A stretch of DNA of 64,000 bases from a virus (IMGVR_UViG_3300009671_000009:64001-128000), one strand, 5' to 3'. Shown: positions 21,116 through 50,529, counted from the first letter of the stretch. Made by a program: numbers and translations. The notes: generated by a model not told the origin, from the letters alone.

Positions 21116-21231
21116 GGAGAATGCGATAATGTTCTGGATAGGTTTAGTTATAGGAATTATAGTCGCTCTGTTGGCAGTTGCAATTGTCATTGTTAAGGCA
21201 TTCAGTGGCAGTATAAGATGGTAACATATAT

Positions 21232-21386
21232 GGGAGTATAGCAGAACGGCATATGCGCCAGCTTGAGATGCCCTGGACTACTTCGGTCTACTTACAGAAG
21301 AAGATAGGCATTCGGCTTTGAATGATGTTGTGGCCACCGCAAATCTCTATTCTAAACTAATAGATCTAAGCTTAGGAGAAACATGA
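21232..21386 (+). pseudogene. 5' half of a tRNA-Leu(GAG) fused to the 3' fragment of a DEDDh exonuclease gene (deletion scar)
   Basis: GGGAGTA-TA-GCAG..TGC-G-CCAGC-TTGAGAT-GC, then the frame ALDYFGLLTEEDRHSALNDVVATANLYSKL..* (HxAxxD ExoIII motif). Confidence 0.65.
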
Positions 21387-21483
21387 GTATAGCATTATTA
21401 AAAATAATAGGTATATCAACTATGACACTTGGAGTCATACTATTAGTAATCGGCGCAATAAAATTAAGCAAGGTGTAATAAGA

Positions 21484-21570
21484 CGGGTAGTGGTGGAATT
21501 GGCAGACTCGCAGCGTTGAGGGCGCTGTGTTCGCAAGGACGTGTGGGTTCAAGTCCCACCTACCCGACCA
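21484..21570 (+). tRNA. tRNA-Leu(GAG)
   Basis: CGGGTAG/CTACCCG, CAGCG-TTGAGGG-CGCTG, long variable arm, ACCA end. Confidence 0.93.
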
Positions 21571-21605
21571 TATAAAAGTTTAGGAGCAAACTCCTAATTA
21601 AATCA

Positions 21606-21714
21606 GAGGAGGAGAATGCCATGAAATTGTAGATTGGCTATACTTAGGTATGTAGACCACCTCCCTAGTGATTTTAATTTGCTGTGTTAAACAAAAAATT
21701 AAAACTAAAGGGAG
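21606..21714 (+). promoter_or_regulatory. Leader peptide with two internal amber codons (MKL*IGYT*VCRPPP*) plus an SD-sequestering hairpin
   Basis: GAGGAGGAG SD, ATG 21621, TAG at codons 4, 9 and 16, then TGA. CTCCC-TAG-tga-TTTTAATTT pairs with AAATTAAAA-CTA-aa-GGGAG, the SD of the ORF at 21724. Confidence 0.75.
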
Positions 21715-21723
21715 AAATGAATT

Positions 21724-22065
21724 ATGTCTATAAAGAAAGAATTCAAAAACTACGTATCTGAACAAATTAAGTCAAACAATTCCTGGTTCGTTAGAGCCAA
21801 TGCTGCCCGCATCGAATCGATGTGTCGGGCTGCGATCAATAGATCATCCTATGGATTTCATTGTGATGACAAACAAGGTCAACCTTCAAACTATCTTGTA
21901 AAAGAAGGCAAGGTTATCTTCATTGAACAAAAGCCAAACACAGAGATTGGTGATGGATGCTGCCACCCGCTCTATCGCTCAATCTTCAACAGAGCTAATG
22001 ACATCATTACTGATGCCAAGAAAAGCTTTGTACCTTCTATGGCTTCGGAGGTAATCAACCAATGA
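21724..22065 (+). CDS. Hypothetical protein, first gene after the amber leader
   Basis: AGGGAG SD; stop overlaps the next start (ATGA). Confidence 0.8.
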   Translation: MSIKKEFKNYVSEQIKSNNSWFVRANAARIESMCRAAINRSSYGFHCDDKQGQPSNYLVKEGKVIFIEQKPNTEIGDGCCHPLYRSIFNRANDIITDAKKSFVPSMASEVINQ

Positions 22066-22343
22066 AGTTATATGTACTAATCGATGAGCAGTATGATGCC
22101 AGCTATCGTGCAGTACAGGGTGCCCATGCGGTTGCGGAGTATTTGCTCCGCAATCCTGGGTCTTCCTGGCAAAATCACACACTGGTTTTTCTAAAGACTC
22201 CGTGTCTTGAAAGATGGACAGATCGTCTTCGTGAAAGCGATAAAGATTTTACATCGTTTGTAGAGCCAGATGTTGGTTACAAAATTACCGCCATCGCTTG
22301 TCTTGATGACGGGTAGATTTTTAGAAAGGTAAAACTAAATTAA
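22062..22343 (+). CDS. Short Pth2-like protein; TAG at 22314-22316 possibly read through to TAA 22343
   Basis: LYVLI...RAVQGAHAVAE...W.N.TLVFL...FVEPDVG.KITAIAC. After the TAG the frame continues IFRKVKLN, resembling a Pth2 C-terminus. Confidence 0.7.
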
Positions 22344-22512
22344 TGTCAGGACACTGGATAACATTAAGAAAACATCATAAAACATATCTAAGTAGCGAAA
22401 AAGATTATATATCTCCATTAATAGGAGTGATATTTGTAGCACTTATCTTGATCTTGCCATTCGTCATGGCAACATTTTTAGGTAAGTAACACGATTAATG
22501 TGATACAGTTTA

Positions 22513-22712
22513 TGGCGGCGGCGTGGATTGGACACGCAAGGAGAACAGCCCGAATTCCCCTGTGGTCAAGACTGTCAACTCCTAAAAGACGATGGCTACC
22601 TAGCCCGTAAGGGGGCTGCAATCAGCTTAATAGCGTTGATCACTACGTAATGTGGGCAAACTCGTCAATAAAAGGTTGGAATCCCTTAGCCAGAATCGAA
22701 GCTGACCCGCCA
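22513..22712 (+). ncRNA. tRNA-like RNA with greatly expanded anticodon domain (~200 nt)
   Basis: Closing stem TGGCGG/CCGCCA, D-like arm GCGTG-GATTGGA-CACGC, AAGG/CCTT stem, T-like arm GCCAG-AATCGAAG-CTGAC. Confidence 0.55.
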
Positions 22713-22737
22713 ATATTTATATTATGGAGGAAAGTAA

Positions 22738-22989
22738 ATGGTTATCTTAGGAAGTAAAGTGAAAGACACACTAACTGGATTCTCTGGTATTGCAACAGCA
22801 AGAACAGAGTGGCTCTATGGGTGTGCTAGAATTTCAATCGAGCCGACTGAGCTAAAAGACGGTAAACCCATCGAAGCCCAATGGTTTGATGAACAGCGCG
22901 TTGAGGTAATTAAAGAATTGGCTCCGACTGTCAGCAAAGATAGTAGCGCTACCAGTGGTGGGCCACAAAGAGATCCTCATTACCGATAA
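22738..22989 (+). CDS. Conserved-looking small phage protein
   Basis: GGAGG SD; LGSKVKD.LTGFSG.ATARTEWLYGC....P..GGP. Confidence 0.75.
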   Translation: MVILGSKVKDTLTGFSGIATARTEWLYGCARISIEPTELKDGKPIEAQWFDEQRVEVIKELAPTVSKDSSATSGGPQRDPHYR

Positions 22990-22998
22990 CAAAAAGGA

Positions 22999-23598
22999 GT
23001 GATTGAAATGGGCGAGATGGCTGATTATTATTTATCAAGTGAAGATGAAAGTATCTACGATGAGCCTCCATATGCTGGTTCGTCAGGCCCTTGCCCAAGA
23101 GATCCCTCGCGGTCATTCCCTTTCTCTACCAGAGAAGAGCCTAGTCGTGCAAAACCAGATCCTCTGGCGCTGTTAAAACAATTAAGACCTATTGTTGTAG
23201 AATCTATAGACTACGCCCAACGTGAGGGTGGCAGTACAGCATACGAAGAGATGTTGTTAAAACAAATAGATACACTGATTCCAAGAAAGGAAGAAACCTT
23301 TCACTGTCCATGTGATTTCACAAAGAGGACAAAGCCCACTGGGGTAAGTGACAAGCAACGGTACGCCATCGAGGTAATTGAAGAGATTACTGGAGATGAA
23401 TTTGAAGGCACTACAAGCAAGGAAGCATGGCTCTTTATTAAAAAACACGAAGGAGCCTATACAGCATATAAAAAGAATAAGAAGTCACCAAGCTGTCGTC
23501 TGAATCGAGTGAGCACATTCGATATTGCAGAAGATCCTAGTGACGATGGTTGTTTTAATGATTACAACGATGATTATCATTTTGATGATATCTTTTAA
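22999..23598 (+). CDS. Hypothetical protein
   Basis: AAGGAG SD; MGEMADY start motif. Confidence 0.65.
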   Translation: MIEMGEMADYYLSSEDESIYDEPPYAGSSGPCPRDPSRSFPFSTREEPSRAKPDPLALLKQLRPIVVESIDYAQREGGSTAYEEMLLKQIDTLIPRKEETFHCPCDFTKRTKPTGVSDKQRYAIEVIEEITGDEFEGTTSKEAWLFIKKHEGAYTAYKKNKKSPSCRLNRVSTFDIAEDPSDDGCFNDYNDDYHFDDIF

Positions 23599-23673
23599 GG
23601 TCAAGTAGTTCAGTGGTAGAACGGAAGCCTCTAAAACTTCATGTCGTGGGTTCAATCCCCACCTTGACCACCA
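23599..23673 (+). tRNA. Amber suppressor tRNA (anticodon CTA)
   Basis: GGTCAAG TA GTTC AGTGGTA GAAC G GAAGC CTCTAAA ACTTC ATGTC GTGGG TTCAATC CCCAC CTTGACC A CCA. Anticodon at 23631-23633; C31-A39 mismatch. Confidence 0.9.
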
Positions 23674-23679
23674 AAACAT

Positions 23680-23713
23680 GTCAGAGTAGCTCAGTCGGTA
23701 AGAGCGGCAGACT
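23680..23713 (+). pseudogene. 5' half of a tRNA truncated at the anticodon loop
   Basis: GTCAGAG TA GCTC AGTCGGTAA GAGC G GCAGA CT abuts the stop of the opposite-strand HNH gene. Confidence 0.7.
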
Positions 23714-24302
23714 AGTTCAGTTGAAATATTCCATTGTCGTATTCCCAGTGACAATTAGGACATAGTGCCATTAAATTGTTTATATCGTTTATTTCAACAA
23801 TTAGAGCATCGTTACTGAATAAAGATACAGGTTTAATATGACATACTTCAGCGAAATGTGAGTAGCCGCATCTTATACACACTAAAGGCTTGCCGCTTGC
23901 TTTATATATTCTATATGCATGTGCTCTAATTATCTTTCTAGCCCGTTCGTATTTGTGTTTATTTAGCATATCGCCTTTTGTTCTATACGGCATTGTGCTA
24001 TGCAACAAACAATCGTCACACTTTTTGTATTTATATGTTCCAGAGTATTGTATTTCTTTACTACAAGTACTACAATATTTTTTAACTTTGTTTCTTGATA
24101 CCCCAGCGTTATTAAAAGACGCAGCACAACTCTGAGAACAAAAATTTTTTCTCTTTACTGCAGCAAGTTTTTGACCTTCCTTTGGTATCATAGGTTTACC
24201 ACAGTTTTTACACAATTTGGGATTTTGCAGGTAAGCGTCTCTTATCTTCTTTGCTTTAGCTTTACCTCCAAAATGCCCACTTTTAGATTTTCCTATTAAC
24301 AT
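23712..24302 (-). CDS. Zn-finger HNH homing endonuclease, inverted relative to its neighbours
   Basis: CKNCG..FCSQSC, CIRCG...EVCHIKP...NDINNLMALCPNCH. GAGGTG SD lies 6 nt before ATG 24302. Confidence 0.88.
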   Translation of the reverse strand: MLIGKSKSGHFGGKAKAKKIRDAYLQNPKLCKNCGKPMIPKEGQKLAAVKRKNFCSQSCAASFNNAGVSRNKVKKYCSTCSKEIQYSGTYKYKKCDDCLLHSTMPYRTKGDMLNKHKYERARKIIRAHAYRIYKASGKPLVCIRCGYSHFAEVCHIKPVSLFSNDALIVEINDINNLMALCPNCHWEYDNGIFQLN

Positions 24303-24399
24303 TATAACCACCTCACTGTTATTATATGGTGGTTACTTGAACATGATAGTCAAAATATCAAATAATGTTTCAAGACGATGTTCTATTAAATAGTTAAAT

Positions 24400-24656
24400 A
24401 GCTTGGGTGGCGGAATAAATAGCTAGGCGCATGCGTGCAAATAGCTAGGCTTGTAATGCCAGTAGACGCTTAAACGGTAGACAGGATAGGGGAAGTTGCC
24501 CTCTAATTAGGTGGGAGCGTGGTGCAAGCTCCATAATTGCCGAGAAACGATAACCGTGCGCTTTTGAGTACCACACACTCCTCGCAAGAGTAGCAGCATA
24601 GTAGCTTGCACGGTTGAAATGCCTGTCATGTGAGGTGAAAATCCTCACCCCAAGCT
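24400..24656 (+). ncRNA. tRNA-like RNA with expanded D-loop and anticodon domain (~255 nt)
   Basis: AGCTTGGG/CCCAAGCT acceptor-like stem, TG-GCGGAAT...GTAGACGC D-arm ends, GACAGG/CCTGTC stem, GTGAGG-TGAAAAT-CCTCAC T-like arm. Confidence 0.65.
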
Positions 24657-24664
24657 TATAATTT

Positions 24665-24759
24665 TGCTGGCAAAACACACAAAGGGAGCGGTTAGCTATA
24701 GTAGACCACAAAGTGCCGCGGTGATGATGGAACCCTAAAGAGCAAGCCGTGGGCCAGCA
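24665..24759 (+). ncRNA. Candidate small structured RNA (~95 nt)
   Basis: TGCTGGC/GCCAGCA closing stem, CCGCGGT/GCCGTGG inner stem, followed by a T-tract. Confidence 0.4.
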
Positions 24760-25175
24760 TTTCTTTTTTTAAAGGTGATTTATTTGAATCTTAAACCAGA
24801 CATAAACTTTCTGTTTGATGTAGATGATGTGGAATCGCTTAGAAATCTGTATGATGATCTTGTAGATGATCTTAGCAATCTATATCGTCCTATAGGAAGT
24901 GACTGGGCTAAAGACAAAAATAAAAGGCTATGGGATATCATTCATCCCTACTTGGTGATTCGTGGATACAAATATTCAATAGAAAACAAGGTGTGCCAAA
25001 TATACAAGAAGTTATACGAAACTAACTCTATATAAAGAGAGGGTATTACAATGAACGAACTTATAAATACAGTAGTAGCAAGCGTTCTAGGAGGACTTTG
25101 TTTTGTAATACTATTAAAGCTTATCGATTGGGCTGAAGTTTTTGTATGCTGGGCTCGTCATAAGTTACATAAAGA

Positions 25176-26411
25176 TTGAGGGTGATTAAAATTCCTGGTG
25201 TAAGCGTAAAAGATTTTTTAATTGATATTCCTGCTGTTCAAGCAACTACCAAAAGAAGAGCCGCTCCGAAGAAAGATCCAGAGTACTCGTTAGTGCTGCA
25301 GAACAACACTGACTTTGTAATAAATAGAAAAACCAAAACAACCGATAGAACCTTAGCTTACTTAATAAGCCAAGGCTTATTTTATGTCCGAGATAATAAA
25401 ACTCAGAAGGTAGAACCGTTATCGCTGAGGAACTATAAAATGTTCTTCGCTCCTGTATATGATCATCAGTTAAGTTATCTAACAGAAGTTAAGTGGTGGA
25501 GTCACTCGCCCCGCCGAATGGAGTCCAAAGCAATAAAGATCATCGGCGATCAATCTATGCAGAAGATGTACCAGCACGGGCTATACGTTGAAAGCCATCA
25601 AGCAGCTAATTGGAAAGAAAACTTTGAGAACAACACAAAACTGTTTCAATATTGTTACGATGTATGTAATAAGTCTGATGTTAACAGATTCGAATTTGAG
25701 AACATTATGGCTTTTGCAACCAAGATTGAACAGAAAATCAACTTCAATAATGCAAAGCATTTTATAGATTCAGTAGGAGAATCCTCAATTAGGTTTAGCC
25801 TAGGAACTGTATACTACCGTGACGACCAGAAGAACTTAATTGGAGCCATAGATACATATAACCTTGACTTCAGCAGATGTATTGAATATTTACTCTTTGA
25901 TCTGTACACTCAAGGTATCTTGATACTGAACACTGCTGTTCTCAATGACTACATTGATTATCTGAGGATGCAAAACAACATGTACGGCAAGATTAAAGAT
26001 AAGTATCCAGCCTATCTTAAGACCGAACATGATATTATGGCCCTAAAGATATCGACGTATGAGAAACATAAGAAGGATTTGTTGGTGTTTAACAATTCAG
26101 ATCTATTCAAGAACCTTGAATACAAGAAGGGCGACTATTGCATTTTACTTCCAAAAACATCTGCTGACATAGTCGATGAAGGAGTAAACCAAAGTCATTG
26201 TGTTGCTTCATATGTTGATAAAGTGGCCCGCGGTGAAACTCTAATTGTTTTCTTGAGAAATAAAGAGACACCAGATAAATCGTTAGTTACCATTGAGGTC
26301 AAGGATGACGGGATCACACAAGCCCGAGGGTTTGCAAATCGTGGGGTTAACGAAGAAGAGGATAAATTCATTACAGAGTGGGCGAAAGAGAAGTCTCTAG
26401 CCTACAAGTAG
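25176..26411 (+). CDS. PcfJ-like domain protein
   Basis: C-terminal YPAYLKTEHD...LPKTSADIVDEG..QSHCVASY...IVFLR....P..SLVTIEV...QARG..N. Confidence 0.8.
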   Translation: MRVIKIPGVSVKDFLIDIPAVQATTKRRAAPKKDPEYSLVLQNNTDFVINRKTKTTDRTLAYLISQGLFYVRDNKTQKVEPLSLRNYKMFFAPVYDHQLSYLTEVKWWSHSPRRMESKAIKIIGDQSMQKMYQHGLYVESHQAANWKENFENNTKLFQYCYDVCNKSDVNRFEFENIMAFATKIEQKINFNNAKHFIDSVGESSIRFSLGTVYYRDDQKNLIGAIDTYNLDFSRCIEYLLFDLYTQGILILNTAVLNDYIDYLRMQNNMYGKIKDKYPAYLKTEHDIMALKISTYEKHKKDLLVFNNSDLFKNLEYKKGDYCILLPKTSADIVDEGVNQSHCVASYVDKVARGETLIVFLRNKETPDKSLVTIEVKDDGITQARGFANRGVNEEEDKFITEWAKEKSLAYK

Positions 26412-26640
26412 GAGGTCTTGTTGTTGTATAAAGTAAACACAATCATTATTGACTCATCAGCCGACGTGCGTGGGCTAGCTGAGCTACACCTTGACACTCT
26501 TCCAGAGTTAAATGCCCAATTATTCTTGTGGTGCTTTCCTCAGTTCAGGGGATTTGTACCAGAAGAAACAGAATACGTAACAGCAATTGCGATAGTTGAG
26601 TTGACACCAACAGCGGCTATCATGCTAGTTTTGGTATAAA

Positions 26641-26715
26641 GCGCTATAGCCTAGCGGAACAGGCACTGGTTTACGGAACCAGCAACGGCGGGTTCGAATC
26701 CTCCTAGGCGCTCCA
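26641..26715 (+). tRNA. tRNA-Arg(ACG), acceptor stem one base short
   Basis: CTGGT-TTACGGA-ACCAG, GGTTCGAATCC, CCA end. 5' GCGCTA versus 3' TAGGCGC leaves a bulge. Confidence 0.78.
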
Positions 26716-34137: not shown

Positions 34138-34563
34138 TTACCACGGGGTACAAAGAACCTTCGAAACTAATGCTCCGATTCTGTTGGTAGATTTTCGACG
34201 GGACATGTACAGACGGAAATCACTTTGATGACTTTTCGCTGTACACTCCCGAAGCACTAAACTGTAAAGAGGTACCTCAACGATTAGAATTATCAATGTG
34301 TACCTTAATACTTTGGACTTGCCGTACTAGCCCACTTCTACAACAAGCTATCAAGTGGCTTGGTCATCGTAAGATTCCGTTTCATTTTGTCAATAAAGAG
34401 GTGCCATGGTCTGAATACCCCAACGAATTTAGAGGGCTATTATATTGACGACCGCAACATAGGCGAATTCCCAGGCTGGCTAGAAGTAGAGCGCCTAGTT
34501 TACTTGCACCCGTATTTTGAAAGCATCACGAGGAGGAACGTGCTTGAAAGTAGAGCTAATTAG
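34118..34563 (+). pseudogene. HAD-like phosphatase broken by two frameshifts
   Basis: ILLVDF/DGT (frameshift at gattttcgac), LILWTCR..LQQAIKWL, then a second shift to YYIDDRNIG.FPGW. Confidence 0.7.
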
Positions 34564-35233
34564 ATACACAGTTAAACCAGAAGAAGCGATGGCAATAGCG
34601 GCGAGTACATGCTATCGCTCAGTTCCAAAAGATAAGGTAGTAGAACATTGTATTCTTTCTGGACATGAAGCTATTTCTGAGTTTGGGGATTTTCATTTCT
34701 TGGTTAGCGGCGTTAGCCGCGCATTGACGCATCAGCTAGTGCGACATAGGTTGGCTTCATTTGCTCAGGAATCCCAAAGATATGTAAGCATGGATGAATT
34801 TAATTATGTTGTACCACCATCTGTTCAGAAAGATAATGAGTCGTATGTTAAATTCAAAATGATGATGGACGAAATTCTTAGTTGTTATACAGACTTGCAG
34901 AACAGAGGAATTCCAAATGAAGACGCAAGATTTGTACTTCCGAATGCATGCACTTCGAAAATCAATGTCAAAATGAATTTTAGAGAGATCATGCATGCCT
35001 GTGCAGAACGCGAATGTAGTAGAGCCCAATGGGAAATCCGAGCTCTATTCAAAGAGATTCACAGGCAGGTAGCAGAAGTATCTCCATTCCTTGGAAAGTA
35101 CTTAGGGCCAAAATGTTTTCGCCTTGGATATTGTCCAGAATTACGTGAGTCTTGTGGCCTGAGACCGAGGAAGACAGACCTCTTCGGTGCTTACGAATGG
35201 TGGGTACGACAAGATAAACCTTCACTTAACTAA
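34544..35233 (+). CDS. thyX: FAD-dependent thymidylate synthase
   Basis: GHEAISE, VSRALTHQLVRHRLASFAQESQRYV, EDARFVLPN, AQWEIR. Confidence 0.96.
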   Translation: MKVELIRYTVKPEEAMAIAASTCYRSVPKDKVVEHCILSGHEAISEFGDFHFLVSGVSRALTHQLVRHRLASFAQESQRYVSMDEFNYVVPPSVQKDNESYVKFKMMMDEILSCYTDLQNRGIPNEDARFVLPNACTSKINVKMNFREIMHACAERECSRAQWEIRALFKEIHRQVAEVSPFLGKYLGPKCFRLGYCPELRESCGLRPRKTDLFGAYEWWVRQDKPSLN

Positions 35234-35255
35234 TAAACGAAAAGGAGGAATTAAA

Positions 35256-36023
35256 ATGAAATCTATCGAATCACTATACACTAACGTTCCATGGTCTAAA
35301 GGGAAAGTAATTCTCATGGCCTATGCAGGATCGATAGCTTATGGAACTAACACACCAACATCTGACATTGATCTGAGAGGTATTTTAATTCCTCCACAAG
35401 ATTTTTATTACGGATTGGACAGTTTCGAAAGCTATCATTCACCTGAAGGGGATCGAACAGAAGACGACGTTGTTGTATATTCGATAAAGAAGTATGCAAA
35501 TCTCGCGCTTCAAAACAATCCTAATGTTCTTGAAATGTTATTCACTAATCCGAAACATTACACAATTTTAAATCGTTTCGGCAGAGAGCTATGCCGTGCC
35601 AGATATAATTTTTTATCAAAGAAAACTTTCAATACATTTAGTGGTTACGCCTTGGCTCAGCTCCATCGAATGACACAAAACGAAGGAAAGCCTACCCATG
35701 GGCAAGGCAACCCTGAACGTCAAAAGATCCGTGAACAATTTGGCTACGATACCAAAGCGGCAATGCATTTGGTTCGACTCATGCGCATGGGCCTTGAGAT
35801 TCTCAGAGATGGAAATCTAATAGTTCATCGGCCTGACGCAGAAGAGTTACTAGACATCAAGAGAGGGAAATATACTCTTCAAGAAATAGTAGAAGAACAC
35901 GATAGACTCTATGAGCAAATGAAGTATTGGAAAGAAGCTTCCGACCTACCTGAAAAGCCAAATAGAGACAAAGTCAATTCGTTCATAATTGAATTAACCA
36001 AGGAGTTCCTAGGAGGTAAGTAA
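35256..36023 (+). CDS. Predicted nucleotidyltransferase (Nuc-transf / RlaP-like)
   Basis: GSIAYGTNTPTSDIDLRG, NPNVLEML, YDTKAAMHLVRL, LLDIKRG. Confidence 0.88.
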   Translation: MKSIESLYTNVPWSKGKVILMAYAGSIAYGTNTPTSDIDLRGILIPPQDFYYGLDSFESYHSPEGDRTEDDVVVYSIKKYANLALQNNPNVLEMLFTNPKHYTILNRFGRELCRARYNFLSKKTFNTFSGYALAQLHRMTQNEGKPTHGQGNPERQKIREQFGYDTKAAMHLVRLMRMGLEILRDGNLIVHRPDAEELLDIKRGKYTLQEIVEEHDRLYEQMKYWKEASDLPEKPNRDKVNSFIIELTKEFLGGK

Positions 36024-36478
36024 TGGGCAAGTGTCAGTATCATCCATGTCATGATCTGGAAAACATAGACTGTCGCCTGTGTTACTGTCCCTTTTATGAC
36101 TATTGCCAGAAGCTACCTACGCATGAGAGACGCCCACGCGGGGTAGCTGGCTACTGGCTAGACCGATCAAGCTTAGGACTTGAACCTGTCTGGGCTTGTG
36201 AGTTATGCGAAATACCACATATAAGAGATGTAGCTGAATACTATGAAAAGAATAAATCCAGCTACAGCATGGAAGATCTTTTCAATGACTGTATGGACAT
36301 TTACAGTGAAGCCATGTATAGAATTCGTAATGTTGTATTTAGGATAGTAATCAAAACAAAGGGCGGCTGGATGTTCTTAAGGCCGCGGCATAGATCTCAC
36401 GGGTCTGCTACTGCACACCTTAAAGAGATCAGCGCAATACATCCAGAGGCATATATCGAAGAAGTTCCTTATGATTAA
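36023..36478 (+). CDS. Cysteine-rich small domain protein
   Basis: CQYHPCH....DCRLCYCPFY..C...VWACELCEIPH. Confidence 0.8.
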   Translation: MGKCQYHPCHDLENIDCRLCYCPFYDYCQKLPTHERRPRGVAGYWLDRSSLGLEPVWACELCEIPHIRDVAEYYEKNKSSYSMEDLFNDCMDIYSEAMYRIRNVVFRIVIKTKGGWMFLRPRHRSHGSATAHLKEISAIHPEAYIEEVPYD

Positions 36479-36522: not shown

Positions 36523-37623
36523 TTGATTAAGACCGCCAAAGGCGACCGTGTTTTCATTGACATAGAAAATCATTTCATTGAGCGTTTCAATCCGCTCACA
36601 GGATTTTATGTCCGTAGTGGAGTTATCGCAAATAAACAGGACACGGGCGTTGATCCGTTTATGAGATGTGCTCCTGGATTATTAGATATAGGGATAATGG
36701 GTCATTGTACTCATGCCCATTTATGTACAGTCGGATGTTATCAGGGTGGAACAGGTAACTGCAAACCCAACATGACACTAGATAACTACAGAAAGATCAT
36801 TGATCAATCTAAAGAATTCTTGTTCCAAGTAGCTCTGGGTGGTCACGGAGACCCGAACAAGCATGAGAACTTTGGGGAGATCCTTGAATATACTCGTAGC
36901 AACGAAATCGTCCCTAACTACACTACAAGTGGATTTAACTTAACAGACGAAGAAGTTGCACTAACTAAACGTTTTTGCGGAGCTACAGCAGTTTCATGGT
37001 ATCGTCGAGATTACACGTTAGATGCCATTCGTCGATTCCTCGAAGCAGGATGCAAGACGAATATCCACTATGTTCTGGGAAATGACAGTATCGATGAAGC
37101 CATTGAAAGATTAGAGCAAGGTACTTTCCCTGAAGGAATCAATGCTGTCATTTTCCTTTTACATAAGCCTGTAGGCTGTGGAAGACAAGAAAGTGTTCTA
37201 CAACCTGGCGACCCAAAAGTTAAAAAGTTTTTTGAAATCGTAGATACATGCAATTTCAAACACAAGATAGGCTTTGACTCTTGTACTGTCCCAGGATTAA
37301 TTAACAACACCGAACGAATAAATCAGGATAGTTTCGATACCTGCGAGGGCGGCAGACATTCTGCTTACATTACTCCAGACATGATGATGCTTCCGTGTTC
37401 GTTCGACAATCAGAGTTATGCCTGGGCTGTCAGCTTAGATAGTTACACAGTGCAAGAAGCATGGAAAAGCTCAGAGTTCGACAACTTTCGTAGTCATTTC
37501 CGCAATGCATGTTCTGGCTGCAAAGACAGACAGCTATGTATGTCAGGCTGTCCAATCGTTCCCCAAATAGTATTATGTAATAGAGAAGAGCGAACTGAAA
37601 GATGCGCAAAGTTTGTGGTATAG
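36523..37623 (+). CDS. Radical SAM protein with SPASM domain
   Basis: CTHAHLCTVGCYQ (Cx5Cx3C variant), VALGGHGDP, NYTTSG; SPASM CEGG...PCSF...CSGC..RQLCMSGCP. Confidence 0.9.
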   Translation: MIKTAKGDRVFIDIENHFIERFNPLTGFYVRSGVIANKQDTGVDPFMRCAPGLLDIGIMGHCTHAHLCTVGCYQGGTGNCKPNMTLDNYRKIIDQSKEFLFQVALGGHGDPNKHENFGEILEYTRSNEIVPNYTTSGFNLTDEEVALTKRFCGATAVSWYRRDYTLDAIRRFLEAGCKTNIHYVLGNDSIDEAIERLEQGTFPEGINAVIFLLHKPVGCGRQESVLQPGDPKVKKFFEIVDTCNFKHKIGFDSCTVPGLINNTERINQDSFDTCEGGRHSAYITPDMMMLPCSFDNQSYAWAVSLDSYTVQEAWKSSEFDNFRSHFRNACSGCKDRQLCMSGCPIVPQIVLCNREERTERCAKFVV

Positions 37624-37744
37624 GATACAAAATTATAGAGTCTAAGGCACACAATCTTAGACTCTATGCCGTATGGTACAAACAGATGCCCATCTGTTAG
37701 TGGATGGAAATTCAAATATTGCAATCGAGAGGAGAGGATCGCAT

Positions 37745-37993
37745 ATGAAAGTACGCTCTGATTTCGTAACAAACTCATCTAGCTCTAGCTTTGTGATAGC
37801 CAAATATCTGTTGAGTGAATATCAACTTGATCAATTAGTTGAATATTCTTGCTCTGACAAGAACACTGATGGCTGGAGAATTACACAAGACGACAATTAC
37901 GTCGATGGATTCACTATGATGGATAACGATGCCATTAATGAATTCTTTGATAAAATTGGCATTAAGCCAGAACACGTGAGGTGGGGCGAATGA
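37745..37993 (+). CDS. TNSSSSS-motif protein 1
   Basis: MKVRSDFVTNSSSSSFVIA; GAGGA SD. Confidence 0.85.
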   Translation: MKVRSDFVTNSSSSSFVIAKYLLSEYQLDQLVEYSCSDKNTDGWRITQDDNYVDGFTMMDNDAINEFFDKIGIKPEHVRWGE

Positions 37994-38379
37994 AAATACG
38001 ATGTGATTTTGTGACAAACTCTAGCAGTTCTAGCTTTATTATAGCAGTTGATCCTGCAAAGTTTGGAACTACCAAAGATGAATTCGTCAGATGCGTTACT
38101 TTATATGCATCAGTATTTGGGATTAAGCCAGTTATTATAGCCGATAAGGAAAAAGTAGACAATCTCTTTTTACAAGACTGGGGTTGTAAAGATCAGTCAC
38201 TTGAAGAAGTCATTGAAGAAAACGGTCTTGCTGACAGATACAACAATTTTGTTGATGCTATCAATAAAGACATGGTTCTGATAGAACAAGAGATCGAACA
38301 AGGAGATTGCGACAGACCATGGATTCTAGAGAAGGCAGAAAAAGAAGGTCTTCTTAAAGTTCTTGATGGAGAATACTAA
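37990..38379 (+). CDS. TNSSSSS-motif protein 2
   Basis: MKIRCDFVTNSSSSSFIIA. Confidence 0.85.
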   Translation: MKIRCDFVTNSSSSSFIIAVDPAKFGTTKDEFVRCVTLYASVFGIKPVIIADKEKVDNLFLQDWGCKDQSLEEVIEENGLADRYNNFVDAINKDMVLIEQEIEQGDCDRPWILEKAEKEGLLKVLDGEY

Positions 38380-38711
38380 TGAAAACGAGACTCGATTTTG
38401 TTACTAATTCTAGTAGCTCTAGTTTTATTGTAGCGACTAAGCTCAAAGTACCTTCTGATGAGTCAAAGAAACTCATTAAAGAGGTAGCCTATGCAATGGG
38501 AGCACACGAAATAGCACTGGAACTGGCCGACCTAGAAGAATTTTTTGAAGAAATTTGTGGTTCAAAAGATCGCTGGGGGCTGTACGAAAAGAGAGCTTAT
38601 GAAGAAGCTATAGCGTTAATTTCCCAGGGGAATATCATTTATACCACAAGCATTTCAAGTGACGATCCGACGTATACTCTTCGTGGTCAGGTGCTATACT
38701 GTTATTGTTAA
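38379..38711 (+). CDS. TNSSSSS-motif protein 3
   Basis: MKTRLDFVTNSSSSSFIVA. Confidence 0.85.
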   Translation: MKTRLDFVTNSSSSSFIVATKLKVPSDESKKLIKEVAYAMGAHEIALELADLEEFFEEICGSKDRWGLYEKRAYEEAIALISQGNIIYTTSISSDDPTYTLRGQVLYCYC

Positions 38712-38720
38712 GGAGGAAAA

Positions 38721-39053
38721 ATGAAAGTAAGGATTGATTTTGTAACGAATTCTAGCAGCTCTAGTTTTATTATTCTAGGAATGTATGCTAGCGACTGGAA
38801 AGAATTAGGGTTGCCTCTTGAGGAAGAGTCAGATTATGACAGTCCACAAGTAAGCGATGAATTCTTCGAGACAGTTTATGACGGAGATAGTGATACTTAC
38901 TCTATCTCGATCAGTAATCTGGTTAGACAAATGCACAGTCACAGTATTAATGATCTCAAACAAATGTATGTAGATAAAGTTAAAGAACTATACGGTAAGG
39001 AAATTTCTACCAAAGATGTAAGCTTTGACTTTGGAGGATGGTACAATGGCTAA
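38721..39053 (+). CDS. TNSSSSS-motif protein 4
   Basis: MKVRIDFVTNSSSSSFIIL. Confidence 0.85.
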   Translation: MKVRIDFVTNSSSSSFIILGMYASDWKELGLPLEEESDYDSPQVSDEFFETVYDGDSDTYSISISNLVRQMHSHSINDLKQMYVDKVKELYGKEISTKDVSFDFGGWYNG

Positions 39054-39387
39054 GATTAGAACGGACTTTGTCACTAATAGCTCAAGTTCTAGTTTTGTAA
39101 TTGCACTTCGCGAAGATGTAACTGTAGATGACATCAGGGAACTTTTCAACATAGAAGATATCAAAAAGTTCCTTGAGGATTATTACGATGAAGAAAATTA
39201 TACACCAGAAGAAGTTTTAGATGATATTGTGTCTATGCTTATGAGAGATGCCAAACATGGTATTCATCTGGGAAATTGGAAAGTATCTGCCTCAGAATTT
39301 TCCAATGAAGGGGAACCTCATATATCGTATTTCTATGAGAGTGGATATATCGATACTGATAAAATTAAGGTGCGTGGTTTCTATTGA
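39046..39387 (+). CDS. TNSSSSS-motif protein 5
   Basis: MAKIRTDFVTNSSSSSFVIA. Confidence 0.85.
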   Translation: MAKIRTDFVTNSSSSSFVIALREDVTVDDIRELFNIEDIKKFLEDYYDEENYTPEEVLDDIVSMLMRDAKHGIHLGNWKVSASEFSNEGEPHISYFYESGYIDTDKIKVRGFY

Positions 39388-39947
39388 AATACCGTTTAGA
39401 TTTCGTAACAAATTCAAGTTCATCAAGTTATACTTGCGACATCTGTGGACATACCGATTCTGGATGGGACATTAGTGTTTCGGAGTGCAGCATGTTTGAA
39501 TGCGAAGAAGGGCATATACTATGTACCAGACATGCGAAACCCGTTGAGACAGAAAGCCTTCGTGCCTTTCTTACAGAGGAAATAACGAACTCAAAATCCC
39601 AAAGTGAAGCCAGACTAATCTCACCACCAGAAGAAAAACCTTCTTGGTTCAGCGAAAAGAATGAAAGAAGAGATCTAGCTGAGTATATAAAATTGCTAGA
39701 AGAGCTTCCAGCTATGGACAAAAATGACATGATGGAAATAGCACGAGATTGCTATAGCTGGGATTGTGAACGTCCAAGTGCATTTTGTCCACTGTGCCAG
39801 TTAGAGGCTATCTCGTCCGACGATGTGCTTCTATATCTCGCAAAGAAGCACAATGTTTCCAAGGCATCTGTTTTGGCAGAAGTCAAAGAGATGTTCGGCT
39901 CTTACGCTGATTTCAAGAGGTATTTGAGAAATGAAGACAAGAAGTGA
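39384..39947 (+). CDS. TNSSSSS-motif protein 6 (Cys-rich)
   Basis: MKYRLDFVTNSSSSSYTCDICG...CEEGHILC..H...CPLC. Confidence 0.85.
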   Translation: MKYRLDFVTNSSSSSYTCDICGHTDSGWDISVSECSMFECEEGHILCTRHAKPVETESLRAFLTEEITNSKSQSEARLISPPEEKPSWFSEKNERRDLAEYIKLLEELPAMDKNDMMEIARDCYSWDCERPSAFCPLCQLEAISSDDVLLYLAKKHNVSKASVLAEVKEMFGSYADFKRYLRNEDKK

Positions 39948-40236
39948 CTTCGTCACCAATTCTAGCTCGTCAAGTTTCATTATTGCCACCAAAGGAAATC
40001 TAACAGAGGCAGAATTTATGGATCGCTTCGGCGTCCCTAAGGAAGAATACGGGTGTACACAAGAAGAAATTGAACAATATTGGGGCAAAATTCTTGATCT
40101 TTTAGATAAAGGATTTATTGTCTCTGAGGGAGACGCTTGGAGTGATGGCGGCGAAATCGAGGCAATGATCTGCAATGCGCCACATCGTATAATCGAAAAA
40201 GACGATTTATATATCGAATTCGGTGGCGGATATTAA
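39931..40236 (+). CDS. TNSSSSS-motif protein 7
   Basis: MKTRSDFVTNSSSSSFIIA. Confidence 0.85.
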   Translation: MKTRSDFVTNSSSSSFIIATKGNLTEAEFMDRFGVPKEEYGCTQEEIEQYWGKILDLLDKGFIVSEGDAWSDGGEIEAMICNAPHRIIEKDDLYIEFGGGY

Positions 40237-40237
40237 T

Positions 40238-40260
40238 AGGCTGGGGGCAACTCCAGCCTT
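40238..40260 (+). terminator. Hairpin closing the TNSSSSS array
   Basis: AGGCTGGGG-GCAA-CTCCAGCCT. Confidence 0.6.
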
Positions 40261-40290
40261 GCTCATTAAACTATAAAGGAGATGTTATAA

Positions 40291-40818
40291 GTGGGTTTAG
40301 ATATGTATCTGTACAAGACTAAGAAAATAAAAGACATGACAAGCCAAGAGTATGAAACAGTTGATGATTTTGTATCCAAGCAAAAACTAACTAGCGACAC
40401 GGATATTGACCTTGAGAAAGAATTGAATATCGCAGGAGCTAACGAGCTTAAGCAATGTATTGATACTAGAGGACAATACATTAGCTGGCAATCTATTTTT
40501 GAAGAAGTTGGATACTGGAGAAAATCAAATCAAATCCATAATTGGTTTGTTGATAATGTCCAAGGTGGCGAAGATGAATGCAGACCGCACCTAGTTTCTA
40601 TTGATGACTTAAAGAAGCTGCGGGATCTTTGCAATCAGGTATTACAAGATCCTTCAAAAGCACCAGAGCTTTTGCCGACATTATCTGGCTTCTTCTTTGG
40701 TGGCACAGAATACGACGAATGGTATTTTAATGATCTCAAAGAAACTATCAATATTATTGACAAAGCACTTGGATCAGTAAGCGAAGAAGATACTTTTGTA
40801 TACCGATCATCCTGGTAA
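40291..40818 (+). CDS. Conserved phage hypothetical protein (MGLDMYL / YWRK.NQIH family)
   Basis: MGLDMYL...GYWRKSNQIHNWFV..VQ.G.D.C...LLPT..GFFFGGTEYDEWY...YRSSW. Confidence 0.8.
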   Translation: MGLDMYLYKTKKIKDMTSQEYETVDDFVSKQKLTSDTDIDLEKELNIAGANELKQCIDTRGQYISWQSIFEEVGYWRKSNQIHNWFVDNVQGGEDECRPHLVSIDDLKKLRDLCNQVLQDPSKAPELLPTLSGFFFGGTEYDEWYFNDLKETINIIDKALGSVSEEDTFVYRSSW

Positions 40819-41439
40819 GAAAGGCTAACAACAATGGCAAAATTTAGAGTTCCAATTTGGTGGTATGAATTACACAGCTATGATTTCATCATCGAAGCTA
40901 ACGACAAACGCGACGCACAAGAAAGAGCCATGCGTAAATTCCAATCGGGAGATTTCGATCCGAAGAGAACCTTCAGCGATTATGGCGAATACGGCATAGA
41001 CGAAATTACGGAGGTCAAATAGTGAAATACGAAGATCTTTCTGAATCACAAAAGGATTTTTGTGCAGAGTTAACTGCGGATTTTGAAGATGAGTTCTATA
41101 TTAATATAGACCGCGCATTATCTTCTGGTGCATTATCAGAAGAGGATATGAAAGAGCTATCTTTCATACAAGCAATTTTTATCATTACTGCAAGATCTTT
41201 CAACACGAGATCTCCGCGAGTGAATTCGATTGTTGACAACTTGCGTAACTTTATCTGAAAGGAGATCCCAAATGATCTGTCCAAATTGCAATGCCGACAT
41301 CAATGACTATGAAGTCTACTGTCCTGTATGTGACATCGATCTAACCGAAGTCAATTTCTTTGACGGCGATACTGAGTTGGTTGAGCAAATAGCAGAGGTG
41401 TAAGCCTCTGCCCGCAATTATATATAGAGGTGATTTATA

Positions 41440-49116: not shown

Positions 49117-49707
49117 ATGCCTGGAAGACGATTCACAGAAGAAGAACGGAAAACAATACTGGAAGGTTGGTTTGATCCCAAGAACAGAAAAGAGATATGC
49201 CAAAAGCTACAACGTACAGAAGGTACTTGTGCGTTTGAATACTACAGGATGCTTAGAAAGCGTGGGATATCTCCCGCTGAATACAAGAAAAGTCTGCTTG
49301 ATCAAAGTGTAATTCAGAGAGTCCAAGAGAATTCCAAAGCCGATAACAAAGATTTTCTTGTGTTGCAACTGGAGAATCTTATAACTCTTATAAAACAAAA
49401 AGAACCTGTTAATATACAGGTTCTTTTACAGGAGAACTTAGTCCTGAAGAGCAAAGTTGCGAGCTTAGAAACAAAGCTCAATGAAGTGCAGTCTACGCTT
49501 AAAAGCGAAAGAGAGGCATATCAGAAAACCTACAAGGAACTCGACTACTGGCTCAATCAATACTTTAACTTGACTAGCATCGAGAAACTGGCTAGCCTTA
49601 AAGATTTCCTTCCTAGGGTCAAAACAGTTGTCGATAAATACGGCACCGTGGTGGGCCTAGTAAAAGAAGGAGATCTTCATCCGATGCTCAAGGTATCAAC
49701 TAGCTGA
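49117..49707 (+). CDS. HTH/Myb-like N-terminus plus coiled coil, putative transcription regulator
   Basis: RRFTEEE...ICQKLQRTEGTC...YY. Has its own promoter TTGCAT-18 nt-TATACT (49067-49096) and an AGGAGG SD. Confidence 0.65.
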   Translation: MPGRRFTEEERKTILEGWFDPKNRKEICQKLQRTEGTCAFEYYRMLRKRGISPAEYKKSLLDQSVIQRVQENSKADNKDFLVLQLENLITLIKQKEPVNIQVLLQENLVLKSKVASLETKLNEVQSTLKSEREAYQKTYKELDYWLNQYFNLTSIEKLASLKDFLPRVKTVVDKYGTVVGLVKEGDLHPMLKVSTS

Positions 49708-50406
49708 CCAGCACGTATCATGGTAATCGCACCACTTACATTCATAGCTGCTCTTGATGTATTCACGTCGAGGCAGCTCTTTTTTTGTAACGCAATCGTT
49801 CACCATGACAACCTTTTCGAGGAGACGTTTTCCAAACTCGGGATCATAATCAACCAGGAACTCTAAAATTTCCTGGTTATTTTTATTCTCGATAAATATT
49901 AATCCATAAGGTATCTTGAGGAGTTCCATGTATAACTGAATCTGAGCATAGTAATCAGGATTAGGTTCATTGCTCTTGACCATCTGGGCAAACTTCTTGT
50001 CATTAGCACTTTTTAGCTCAACAATGGCAACATCATCCACGCCAGGTATAATGTCTTTAGTCGTAATGATAGAATCCAATCTCCCAGATATTCTAAGCTC
50101 AGGAACCTTAATAGGAAACTCATTTGCTACAAGTATCCCCATTTCTTCAAACCATGTCTGATACCTTTCATGCATTGAATTGCCGTTCTCCATTATCCGT
50201 ATAAGTTTCGGCTCTTTTGGAGGTTTTGGATATCCAAGCATATCATACACTATGTAACGTGAACATTTGTTGGCACTAGAGGGATAGAATCTTGGGCCTT
50301 CCAGCTCTGTCTTCTTCGCTCTTTCGACGTTAGATTTAGCATCCTTGTCTAATAAGTGGCTTGCAATTTTAGCAGCTAATAGTTTTTGTGAAATTATCAT
50401 AATCAA
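49696..50406 (-). CDS. Cas4-like PD-(D/E)XK exonuclease
   Basis: FYPSSANKCSR, G..MH, SGRLD, VELKS, QIQLYM, CKWCDY...C. Confidence 0.85.
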   Translation of the reverse strand: MIMIISQKLLAAKIASHLLDKDAKSNVERAKKTELEGPRFYPSSANKCSRYIVYDMLGYPKPPKEPKLIRIMENGNSMHERYQTWFEEMGILVANEFPIKVPELRISGRLDSIITTKDIIPGVDDVAIVELKSANDKKFAQMVKSNEPNPDYYAQIQLYMELLKIPYGLIFIENKNNQEILEFLVDYDPEFGKRLLEKVVMVNDCVTKKELPRREYIKSSYECKWCDYHDTCWSAS

Positions 50407-50529
50407 TATCTTCTCCTTATAGATATTATTATATGCGTTTCATTGTTAGTCAACGAATAAATTTCATAGAAAAGAATAGAATAAATATGGGCACTATCCC
50501 CTTTGTCCAAGACAAAGGTGCCCAATAGA

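What the first reader, a model, noticed from the sequence alone, without database searches (positions are those of the whole stretch)
36523..40260. Radical SAM/SPASM enzyme followed by seven tandem proteins sharing an N-terminal MKxRxDFVTNSSSSS[FY] tag
Seen: seven consecutive, mostly translationally coupled ORFs (82-187 aa) have an almost invariant 16-residue N-terminus. Their bodies are acidic and do not align by eye, and several end in Gly/aromatic tails (GEY, GGWYNG, RGFY, GGGY). The Ser run uses mixed codons (TCT/AGC/AGT/TCA/TCG), so conservation is at protein level and is not a DNA repeat. The array directly follows a radical SAM/SPASM gene and ends at a hairpin. Known: SPASM-domain radical SAM enzymes modify peptides and proteins (e.g. 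anSME converts Ser/Cys to formylglycine; RiPP maturases), and Ser-containing beta-turns self-cleave in pyruvoyl enzymes. Inference: a phage-encoded maturase with a diversified family of substrates marked by a shared recognition or modification motif. I know of no characterised function for this arrangement.
Basis: partly seen in the sequence, partly recalled or inferred. Interest (0 to 1): 0.88.

Follow-up and report, generated by a model that had tools for sequence, protein, structure and literature searches.

The report
Radical-SAM enzyme with seven tagged proteins
A 224-kb phage encodes an iron-sulfur "radical SAM" enzyme followed by seven unrelated small acidic proteins that all start with the same 16-residue serine-rich tag. 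Enzyme and tag travel together in many phages, in a conjugative element and in bacterial defence islands, and I found no description of them, so this is probably an undescribed way of chemically marking whole proteins.

Summary
A SPASM-domain enzyme (36523-37623) is followed by seven tightly packed genes (37745-40236). Their products share only M-K-x-R-x-D-F-V-T-N-S-S-S-S-S-[FY] at the very N-terminus. The tag is conserved at protein level, and the bodies are acidic and unrelated.

The enzyme has the fold of peptide-modifying radical SAM/SPASM maturases (SuiB Z 26.5). Its first cluster motif is Cx5Cx3C, not CX3CX2C.

Enzyme and tag are almost obligately linked:
- 73 of 80 viral enzyme loci carry tag genes, all on the enzyme's strand.
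- 12 of 12 near-complete tag-bearing phages carry the enzyme.
- 71 of 80 bacterial loci carry tag genes.

The tag also heads proteins of up to 911 aa (LRR) in defence islands. It occurs in a conjugative element and, as GFVSNSSSSS, in cultured T4-like Klebsiella and Escherichia phages.

Tag variants change in concert within a genome. Each paralogue has one-per-genome orthologues elsewhere, so this is a set of distinct clients, not a recently diversified family.

Best reading (about 0.6): tag-directed radical modification of whole proteins, chemistry unknown. I found no description in Pfam, NCBIfam, PADLOC or the searchable literature. This scan has already found the same system on other DNA several times.

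The parts
36523..37623 (+). SPASM-domain, radical-SAM-fold enzyme (366 aa). N-terminal Cys triad C62-x5-C68-x3-C72. SPASM cysteines C254, C274, C292, C330, C333, C339, C343, C352.
   Evidence: PF13186 at 24.7 bits (cut-off 21.5). phrog_7293 at 3.8e-25. AF2 model pLDDT 93. SuiB Z 26.5, rmsd 3.1 A, 320 residues aligned. Cys positions and spacing.
37634..37668 (+). 14-bp stem, 7-nt loop hairpin in the spacer between the enzyme gene and the first tag gene
   Evidence: RNA fold of 37620-37745, (z = -2.27). Function not tested.
37745..37993 (+). Tagged protein 1 (82 aa, pI 4.45, starts MKVRSDFVTNSSSSSF). Its subfamily is seen in 31 other loci.
   Evidence: Purine-rich RBS (GAGAGGAGAGGA) a few bases before the ATG.
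37990..38379 (+). Tagged protein 2 (129 aa, pI 4.40, ends DGEY). Its subfamily is seen in 30 loci.
38379..38711 (+). Tagged protein 3 (110 aa, pI 4.84, ends YCYC). No body relative among the fetched loci.
38721..39053 (+). Tagged protein 4 (110 aa, pI 4.31, ends GGWYNG). Its subfamily is seen in 20 loci.
39046..39387 (+). Tagged protein 5 (113 aa, pI 4.48, starts MAKIRTDFVTNSSSSSF, ends RGFY). Its subfamily is seen in 9 loci. It gives the best match to phrog_7397.
39384..39947 (+). Tagged protein 6 (187 aa, TTG start, pI 4.91, 9 Cys including CxxC pairs right after the tag). Its subfamily is seen in 34 loci.
39931..40236 (+). Tagged protein 7 (101 aa, pI 4.30, ends GGGY)
   Evidence: AF2 model of low confidence.
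40238..40259 (+). 9-bp stem, GCAA-loop hairpin that closes the array. It is not followed by a T-run.
   Evidence: The consensus terminator scan did not call it.

Best explanation
This is a two-part protein-modification system. One SPASM-type radical SAM enzyme serves a set of otherwise unrelated client proteins, and each client carries the same portable 16-residue N-terminal tag.

Proposed mechanism (inferred, not shown):
- The basic/aromatic half of the tag (M-K-x-R-x-[DG]-[FY]-V) docks on the enzyme the way a RiPP leader docks on SuiB-type maturases.
- The invariant T-N-S-S-S-S-S-[FY] segment lies at the SAM/[4Fe-4S] site.
- A 5'-deoxyadenosyl radical abstracts a hydrogen there. The two SPASM auxiliary clusters take up the electron.
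- The product is either an oxidised Ser (formylglycine-like, as in anSME) or a carbon-carbon or ether cross-link to a flanking residue (as in SuiB).
- The change gives every client a shared property needed for its own, different job.

Because the system sits in phage non-structural regions, in a conjugative element and in defence islands, those jobs are most likely in phage-host or element-host conflict.

Shown: the anatomy, the linkage, the portability of the tag and the enzyme fold. Inferred: that the tag is the substrate, the chemistry, and the biological role.
For: Linkage:
- 3 of 3 loci picked through a tag protein have the enzyme (54-58% identity) beside 2-7 tag genes.
- 73 of 80 IMG/VR loci picked through the enzyme hold tag genes within 10 kb. 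All 270 tag genes are on the enzyme's strand, and at least 4 of the 7 empty loci are cut within about 500 bp after the enzyme gene.
- 28 of 34 further tag-bearing viral records have the enzyme, including 12 of 12 that are at least 90% complete.
- 71 of 80 bacterial loci hold tag genes, again all on the enzyme's strand.
- Among the 80 bacterial loci no other neighbour is common, apart from an XRE-type HTH gene in 21.

Portability of the tag:
- In 269 of 270 tag genes a start codon (ATG, TTG or GTG) lies five codons before [DG]6.
- It heads at least 14 body groups with no profile-profile similarity.
- It heads proteins from 82 to 911 aa, including an LRR_5 protein.

Constraint at protein level: mixed codons. 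T9, N10 and S11-S13 are 270 of 270.

Concerted evolution of the tag within a genome:
- 57 loci have D at position 6 in all tags, 24 have G in all tags, and 1 is mixed.
- Three body subfamilies occur with D in some genomes and G in others.
- Both tagged proteins of phage Miro carry G6 and S9.

Enzyme:
- AF2 model pLDDT 93.
- Best structural matches are peptide/protein maturases: SuiB Z 26.5, SkfB 23.6, CteB 22.3, anSME 21.4, PqqE 21.0, ChlB 20.7.
- Three N-terminal Cys and all SPASM Cys are conserved across 60 homologues.

Weak hint of expression: 100%-identical contigs over the enzyme and tag genes in four metatranscriptome libraries of four studies.
Against: - No chemistry was or can be shown here.
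- The first cluster motif is non-canonical (Cx5Cx3C here, Cx7Cx6C in 129 of 133 relatives) and Pfam PF04055 does not match. SAM cleavage is therefore not certain.
- The low-confidence AF2 model puts SSSFIIA into the first core strand of client 7. Part of the 'tag' may thus be structural.
- C-termini are subfamily-specific and enriched in Gly, His and Tyr. The N-terminus may therefore not be the only constrained end.
- The all-G6 loci are closely related phages. The concerted change thus rests on few independent lineages.
- Co-occurrence shows a functional link, not an enzyme-substrate relation.
Confidence: 0.6

Rival explanations
1. The conserved N-terminus is a structural or ligand-binding element: the first strand plus a Ser-rich anion- or metal-binding loop, possibly closed by the conserved C-terminal end. 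It would belong to one very divergent small fold. The enzyme would make or load a small molecule or cofactor that these proteins carry, sense or neutralise. They would be partners, not substrates.
For: - The AF2 model places residues 13-20 in a core beta-strand with an alpha/beta body.
- Atlas models of different clusters superpose at TM 0.68-0.85.
- Many members share an 'LDDW-x-V ... SNE' core.
- C-termini are conserved within subfamilies and enriched in HH, G and Y.
Against: - Profile-profile comparison finds no relation between 14 body groups.
- The tag also heads a 911-aa LRR protein and proteins of 200-310 aa.
- Residues 1-11 are modelled as disordered (low confidence).
- The closest structural relatives of the enzyme act on peptides or proteins.
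Confidence: 0.17
2. The tag is a sorting signal, like the T4 capsid-targeting sequence of the internal proteins. It would send diverse cargo proteins into the virion or another compartment. The enzyme would be needed only indirectly.
For: The logic is the same as the T4 internal-protein locus (own knowledge): an invariant short N-terminal tag on variable small proteins in a large phage. Arrays of 3-8 occur in large phages.
Against: - The pair also occurs as a one-client cassette in bacterial chromosomes, in a conjugative element and in defence islands with no virion genes nearby.
- The array lies among DNA- and RNA-metabolism genes, not in a structural module.
- Strict linkage to a radical SAM-fold enzyme is not explained.
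Confidence: 0.05
3. The tag processes itself. An N-to-O acyl shift or Asn cyclisation at Asn10-Ser11 or within the Ser run cleaves off a short peptide and leaves a new reactive N-terminus (pyruvoyl-like or Ser). The enzyme would act before or after this step, or the released modified peptide would be the real product with the bodies as carriers.
For: T-N-S-S-S-S-S is invariant. Asn-Ser and Ser-Ser junctions are the cleavage sites of inteins and pyruvoyl enzymes (own knowledge). There is no direct evidence here.
Against: - If one identical peptide were the product, 2-10 different conserved bodies per genome would be unexplained.
- No protease or exporter is conserved nearby.
- Self-cleavage would not need a dedicated enzyme.
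Confidence: 0.1

Closest known systems
SuiB/StrB with precursor SuiA (streptide Lys-Trp cyclase; PDB 5V1Q, 5V1S, 5V1T)
   Same: Best structural match over nearly the whole enzyme (Z 26.5, rmsd 3.1 A, 320 residues, model 4-354). Both have a SPASM domain with two auxiliary-cluster Cys sets. In both, a conserved N-terminal element of the substrate gene is encoded next to the enzyme.
   Different: - Only 15-17% identity.
- No CX3CX2C motif.
- The clients are 82-911-aa proteins, not a ~30-residue peptide.
- No protease or exporter is nearby.
- The tag has no Trp.
Anaerobic sulfatase-maturating enzymes (anSME, AtsB) with sulfatases
   Same: A SPASM radical SAM enzyme that modifies a Ser or Cys in a short motif near the N-terminus of a whole protein (own knowledge). 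Structural match Z 21.4.
   Different: The clients lack the C/S-x-P/A-x-R motif and any sulfatase domain. The clients are unrelated to each other. There is an extra N-terminal beta domain (residues 1-50) that the anSME alignments (model residues 49-355) do not cover.
One-enzyme, many-precursor RiPP systems (for example ProcM with prochlorosin precursors); own knowledge
   Same: One enzyme serves many genes that share a near-identical N-terminal recognition element with dissimilar remainders.
   Different: Here the invariant part most likely holds the modified site itself. The variable part is a folded protein domain with orthologues across genomes, not a hypervariable core peptide.
T4 internal proteins with the capsid-targeting sequence; own knowledge
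   Same: A short invariant N-terminal tag on diverse small proteins in a large phage.
   Different: No dedicated enzyme is involved in T4. The present tag also occurs outside phages.
Radical SAM-SPASM peptide-processing modules of VMAP ternary conflict systems (Kaur et al. 2020, PMC7159879)
   Same: A SPASM radical SAM enzyme predicted to modify a gene-encoded effector peptide within prokaryotic conflict systems.
   Different: There the conserved motif (FxSxx) is described in a C-terminal peptide that a metallopeptidase processes, next to vWA-MoxR and AP-ATPase genes. No such partners were among the common neighbours of the 80 bacterial loci. Whether the two are related was not tested.

Membership tests
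Radical SAM superfamily (PF04055) | CX3CX2C cluster motif | tested here: not met
   The window enzyme has Cx5Cx3C. 129 of 133 relatives have Cx7Cx6C. Phage Miro has Cx7Cx2C. Three Cys are always present.
Radical SAM superfamily (PF04055) | Partial TIM-barrel core like solved radical SAM enzymes | tested here: met
   AF2 pLDDT 93. Foldseek E 2.9e-13 to SuiB. VIA Z 26.5 to 12 against dozens of radical SAM structures.
Radical SAM superfamily (PF04055) | Match to the Pfam model; SAM-binding GGE-type motif | tested here: inconclusive
   No PF04055 hit at E <= 1. 2 of 120 close homologues carry it precomputed. An invariant L-G-G-x-G-[DN] and P-N-[YF]-T-[ST]-S-G are present, but their role was not tested.
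SPASM domain (PF13186 / TIGR04085) | CX2CX5CX3C plus upstream and downstream Cys for two auxiliary clusters; model match | tested here: met
   PF13186 at 24.7 bits against a cut-off of 21.5. TIGR04085 at 26.3 against 27, just under. C330-x2-C333-x5-C339-x3-C343, C352, C274 and C292 are invariant.
RiPP biosynthetic cluster (SuiB/CteB/SkfB type) | Short precursor peptide (leader plus core) | tested here: not met
   Clients are 82-187 aa here and up to 911 aa elsewhere.
RiPP biosynthetic cluster (SuiB/CteB/SkfB type) | Leader protease and/or exporter in the cluster | tested here: not met
   Among the 80 bacterial loci the only recurrent neighbours are tag genes and an XRE HTH gene. Of the window's neighbours only the enzyme, the tag genes and RlaP recur in other loci.
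RiPP biosynthetic cluster (SuiB/CteB/SkfB type) | RiPP recognition element (PqqD-like domain) | tested here: inconclusive
   The enzyme has a conserved three-stranded N-terminal domain of about 50 residues. The SuiB alignment spans model 4-354. No PqqD-family hit.
anSME-sulfatase pair | C/S-x-P/A-x-R motif in a sulfatase-domain substrate | tested here: not met
   The tag is TNSSSSS[FY] without P-x-R. No Pfam domain in the window's clients or in 10 subfamily representatives.
Mycofactocin (MftC) / PQQ (PqqE) maturases | Equivalog score; partner MftB/PqqD; C-terminal core residues | tested here: not met
   TIGR03962 at 26 bits against a cut-off of 265. TIGR02109 at 24 against 381. No such neighbour. 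A C-terminal Tyr occurs in only 18% of clients.
T4-type capsid-targeting sequence | Restricted to virion cargo of phages and cleaved by the prohead protease | tested here: not met
   The tag occurs in an ICE and in chromosomal defence islands. Cleavage is not testable here.
Known anti-phage defence families (PADLOC-DB) | Match to a defence-system model | tested here: not met
   No hit below E 0.01 for the enzyme or any client.

The most novel reading that the evidence does not exclude
The tag plus enzyme is a general 'radical tag'. It would be a previously unknown post-translational modification that mobile elements and defence islands install on the N-terminus of dozens of unrelated proteins. 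It would act as a common activation or arming step, for example by creating a reactive or cross-linked N-terminus, and so tie the activity of all clients to one Fe-S/SAM-dependent enzyme.
Probability: 0.35. Interest if true: 0.9.

Novelty: new variant of a known kind. Interest (0 to 1): 0.8.

Why it matters
If the tag is the substrate, this is a portable, genetically encoded handle by which one radical SAM enzyme modifies whole proteins of any fold. SPASM enzymes are otherwise known mainly for short peptides and sulfatases.

The system is abundant:
- The enzyme family has 373 representatives of 50%-identity clusters at E <= 1e-30.
- More than 4,000 proteins of each partner were scored in the 90% clusters.

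It sits in phages, a conjugative element and defence islands, so it probably matters in phage-host conflict, mostly among anaerobes.

It can be tested at the bench. More than 170 cultured T4-like phages of Klebsiella, Enterobacter, Cronobacter, Citrobacter and Escherichia carry a distant enzyme and two tagged proteins. A short transferable tag with a dedicated enzyme could also become a protein-labelling tool.

Tried and rejected
- Complex prediction of enzyme (A4), three 4Fe-4S, SAM and client 7 (A3): no verdict. It is not used as evidence either way.
- AF2 of client 7: mean pLDDT 57. This is too poor for a fold search, so none was run on it.
- blastn of the whole locus against cultured phages: no match.
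- tblastn of client 5 against cultured phages: no match. The low-complexity filter and body divergence probably hide the tag. The pattern search was what found the Miro tags.
- PDB sequence search with the enzyme or its profile: only spurious PPR or IMPDH hits plus weak SPASM-region hits to PqqE, anSME and BtrN.
- Pfam, NCBIfam and PADLOC on the clients: nothing meaningful.
- ESM Atlas: only 'hypothetical protein' clusters, mostly viral.
- Search for longer fused forms: only 3 hits, one of them LRR_5.
- Literature searches on motif strings and on SPASM/phage/anti-defence terms: nothing on this system.
- Glycyl-radical idea (Gly-aromatic tails as the radical site): rejected. The C-termini differ between subfamilies (SHH, HMG, LSY, GRDG) and only the N-terminus is invariant.
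- HAD, PIN, vWA-MIDAS or P-loop readings of the motif: considered from memory and dropped. The residue patterns do not fit, and the bodies are unrelated.
- RNA-library contigs leave 40226-41000 uncovered in all four runs. No DNA run was laid for comparison, so this is no finding.
- The consensus terminator scan did not call either hairpin.


Full report
WHAT IS THERE

The window is bases 64001-128000 of a 224,466-bp viral record with direct terminal repeats. On the + strand a 366-aa gene (36523-37623) is followed by seven genes (37745-40236).
- Placing each start at the codon that precedes the motif gives products of 82, 129, 110, 110, 113, 187 and 101 aa.
- All begin M-K-x-R-x-D-F-V-T-N-S-S-S-S-S-[FY]. 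Gene 5 has one extra Ala, and gene 6 uses a TTG start.
- A degenerate pattern for DFVTNSSSSS hits these seven places and nothing else in the genome. The control pattern gives 0 hits.
- Only 39% of same-residue codon pairs use the same codon, and Ser is written with five codons from both codon boxes. So the conservation is at protein level and this is not a DNA repeat.
- The genes overlap by 1-17 nt or lie 9 nt apart.
- A 14-bp hairpin sits between the enzyme gene and gene 1. A 9-bp hairpin closes the array.
- The products are acidic, with pI 4.30-4.91.

THE ENZYME

Sequence models:
- Pfam sees only the SPASM domain.
- NCBIfam gives weak, far sub-threshold hits to several peptide-modifying radical SAM/SPASM maturases.
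- PHROGs puts it in phrog_7293, of unknown function.

Cysteines:
- The N-terminal triad is C62-x5-C68-x3-C72. In relatives it is mostly Cx7Cx6C (129 of 133) and never CX3CX2C.
- The SPASM cysteines, including C330-x2-C-x5-C-x3-C343, are invariant in 60 homologues.

Structure:
- An AF2 model built from those homologues has pLDDT 93.
- It matches SuiB best: Foldseek E 2.9e-13, and VIA Z 26.5, rmsd 3.1 A, 320 residues over model 4-354.
- The next matches are SkfB, CteB, anSME, PqqE and ChlB.

By fold the enzyme is therefore a peptide/protein-modifying radical SAM/SPASM enzyme. It has an unusual first cluster motif and a small conserved N-terminal beta domain.

LINKAGE OF ENZYME AND TAG

Both partners are large families, with more than 4,000 scored proteins each in the 90%-identity clusters. 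The enzyme profile finds 373 representatives of 50%-identity clusters at E <= 1e-30.
- Three loci chosen through a tag protein were a Lacrimispora genome, a contig binned as Kaiserbacteria and a 162-kb phage contig. All three have the enzyme next to 2-7 tag genes.
- Of 80 IMG/VR loci chosen through the enzyme, 73 have tag genes within 10 kb. All 270 tag genes are on the enzyme's strand. At least 4 of the 7 empty loci end within about 500 bp after the enzyme gene.
- Of 34 further viral records chosen through the tag pattern, 28 have the enzyme. These include 12 of the 12 that are at least 90% complete.
- Of 80 bacterial loci, mostly Clostridia, 71 have tag genes. Usually there is one, a ~125-aa protein directly upstream of the enzyme, and in 21 loci an XRE-type HTH gene lies downstream.
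- Among the bacterial loci nothing else is conserved nearby. Of the window's neighbours only an RlaP nucleotidyltransferase recurs, in 19 of 83 loci.

THE TAG IS PORTABLE

- Over 270 viral tag genes the logo is M-K-[IVFL]-R-x-[DG]-[FY]-V-T-N-S-S-S-S-S-[FY]-[IV]-[ICL]. T9, N10 and S11-S13 never vary, and a start codon sits at the same distance in 269 of 270.
- With the tag removed, the seven window proteins give no BLAST hit to each other.
- 14 body groups give no profile-profile similarity (highest probability 17%).
- Five of the seven bodies have orthologues in 9-34 other loci, about one per locus. The array is therefore a set of distinct old clients and not a recent tandem expansion.
- No Pfam domain was found in the window's clients or in ten subfamily representatives.
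- The tag also heads a 911-aa LRR_5 protein and proteins of 209-310 aa.

CONCERTED CHANGE

Among loci with two or more tags, 57 have D at position 6 in all tags, 24 have G in all tags, and one is mixed. Three body subfamilies occur with D in some genomes and G in others.

In the cultured Klebsiella phage Miro, both tagged proteins (CPT_Miro114 and CPT_Miro119) read MKIRSGFVSNSSSSSF. That is G6 and S9 in two unrelated bodies. This fits a tag matched to one genome-specific partner. The all-G loci are close relatives, so the number of independent events is small.

WHERE IT OCCURS

- The window's phage is found in bioreactor, sludge, manure and landfill samples.
- In Butyrivibrio the cassette lies between a restriction-modification pair, a Schlafen-type helicase and a PIN gene on one side, and a PIF1 helicase and a type IV coupling protein on the other. 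That is a conjugative element.
- One metagenomic operon (tagged LRR protein, an untagged 326-aa gene, two further tagged proteins, enzyme) lies beside GmrSD, HEPN and HIRAN genes. Another (enzyme, tagged protein, two giant LRR proteins) lies beside BREX genes.
- Among cultured phages, a distant enzyme (26-28% identity, Cx7Cx2C) is found in 171 T4-like records. The two Miro-type tagged proteins are found in 175 and 174 records with essentially the same genus breakdown. These phages form one clade, so this counts as one further lineage. It does give a bench model.

HOW IT MOST LIKELY WORKS

The strict linkage, the enzyme fold, the position and invariance of the tag, its portability and its concerted change are best explained by tag-directed radical modification of whole proteins (confidence about 0.6). 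I propose three steps:
- The basic/aromatic half of the tag docks on the enzyme.
- The T-N-S-S-S-S-S-[FY] segment is presented to the SAM cluster.
- The outcome is Ser oxidation (anSME-like) or a cross-link (SuiB-like).

None of this chemistry is shown.

Rivals:
- The N-terminus is a structural or ligand-binding element and the proteins are partners of the enzyme (0.17).
- The tag self-cleaves, or a released peptide is the product (0.10).
- The tag is a virion-sorting signal (0.05). Its occurrence outside phages argues against this.

The role in conflict between mobile elements and hosts is inferred only from context and from the small acidic nature of the clients.

COMPARISON WITH WHAT IS KNOWN

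The enzyme is a new family within the SPASM radical SAM enzymes. The system works like leader-guided RiPP maturation or sulfatase maturation, but it fails the membership tests of both:
- no short precursor peptide;
- no protease or exporter;
- no sulfatase motif;
- equivalog scores far below cut-off.

Kaur et al. 2020 (PMC7159879) predicted SPASM radical SAM enzymes that modify effector peptides in VMAP conflict systems. Their motif and their partners differ from what is seen here.

No paper in the searchable library mentions the motif or the pairing. Earlier notes of this scan describe the same pairing on other genomes. Two of their leads were checked here:
- Tags in cultured T4-like Klebsiella phages: confirmed.
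- A defence-island form with large repeat proteins: partly confirmed, as LRR proteins beside BREX and GmrSD. The NLR or Avs2 link was not tested.

EXPRESSION

Four metatranscriptome libraries from four studies hold 100%-identical short contigs over the enzyme and tag genes. DNA carry-over cannot be excluded, so this is only a weak hint.

VERDICT

This is a real, strongly non-random feature. It is a member of a widespread enzyme-plus-portable-tag system for which I found no description. Its mechanism is inferred, and it can be tested in cultured phages.

Noticed in passing
window 12193-26715: Cluster of 11 tRNA genes on the + strand. One has a CUA anticodon (23599-23673; ARAGORN labels it tRNA-Pyl), so it is a candidate amber-suppressor tRNA. 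The genes studied here are intact under code 11.
   Followed up: no
window 34517-36478: Directly upstream of the enzyme lie ThyX (PF02511), an RlaP 'RNA repair pathway' nucleotidyltransferase (PF10127) and a Cys-rich PF04071 protein. An RlaP homologue lies within 10 kb of the enzyme in 19 of 83 other loci. One such phage also has RtcB, NADAR and a CCA-adding enzyme nearby.
   Followed up: partly
window 37634-37668: A strong 14-bp hairpin lies between the enzyme gene and the first tag gene. It might set the ratio of enzyme to clients. Its conservation in other loci was not examined.
   Followed up: no
all tagged proteins of fetched loci (298 distinct): The last residue is G (62), H (54) or Y (53), far above body composition (G 5.5%, H 1.7%, Y 5.9%). 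Endings are subfamily-specific: SHH, HMG, DLSY, GRDG. The counts are not phylogenetically independent, and the meaning is unknown.
   Followed up: partly
L056 8931-10023 and L052 8886-9999: Just upstream of the enzyme in a gut-phage clade lie four tandem ~95-100-aa paralogues. They share a motif of the type K-V-G-x-x-Y/V-R-V/I-R/K-S/Q-W-x-x-M-x-K/R-E-F/Y-G. This is a second, different small-protein array.
   Followed up: no
L288 (Klebsiella phage Miro 66800-72200): The two tagged genes CPT_Miro114 and CPT_Miro119 flank a 738-aa protein annotated as holding a von Willebrand factor A domain (CPT_Miro117). vWA proteins are core parts of the conflict systems in which Kaur et al. predicted SPASM enzymes. 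A link was not tested.
   Followed up: no
window ~49700-50500: Gene orientation and GC skew switch sign here. Genes upstream are on the + strand and genes from 49696 on are on the - strand.
   Followed up: no
L209, L206 and other bacterial loci: Some bacterial genomes carry phage-like arrays of 3-10 tag genes, among them the complete genome of Clostridiales bacterium CCNA10 with 5. These are probably prophages, which was not checked.
   Followed up: no
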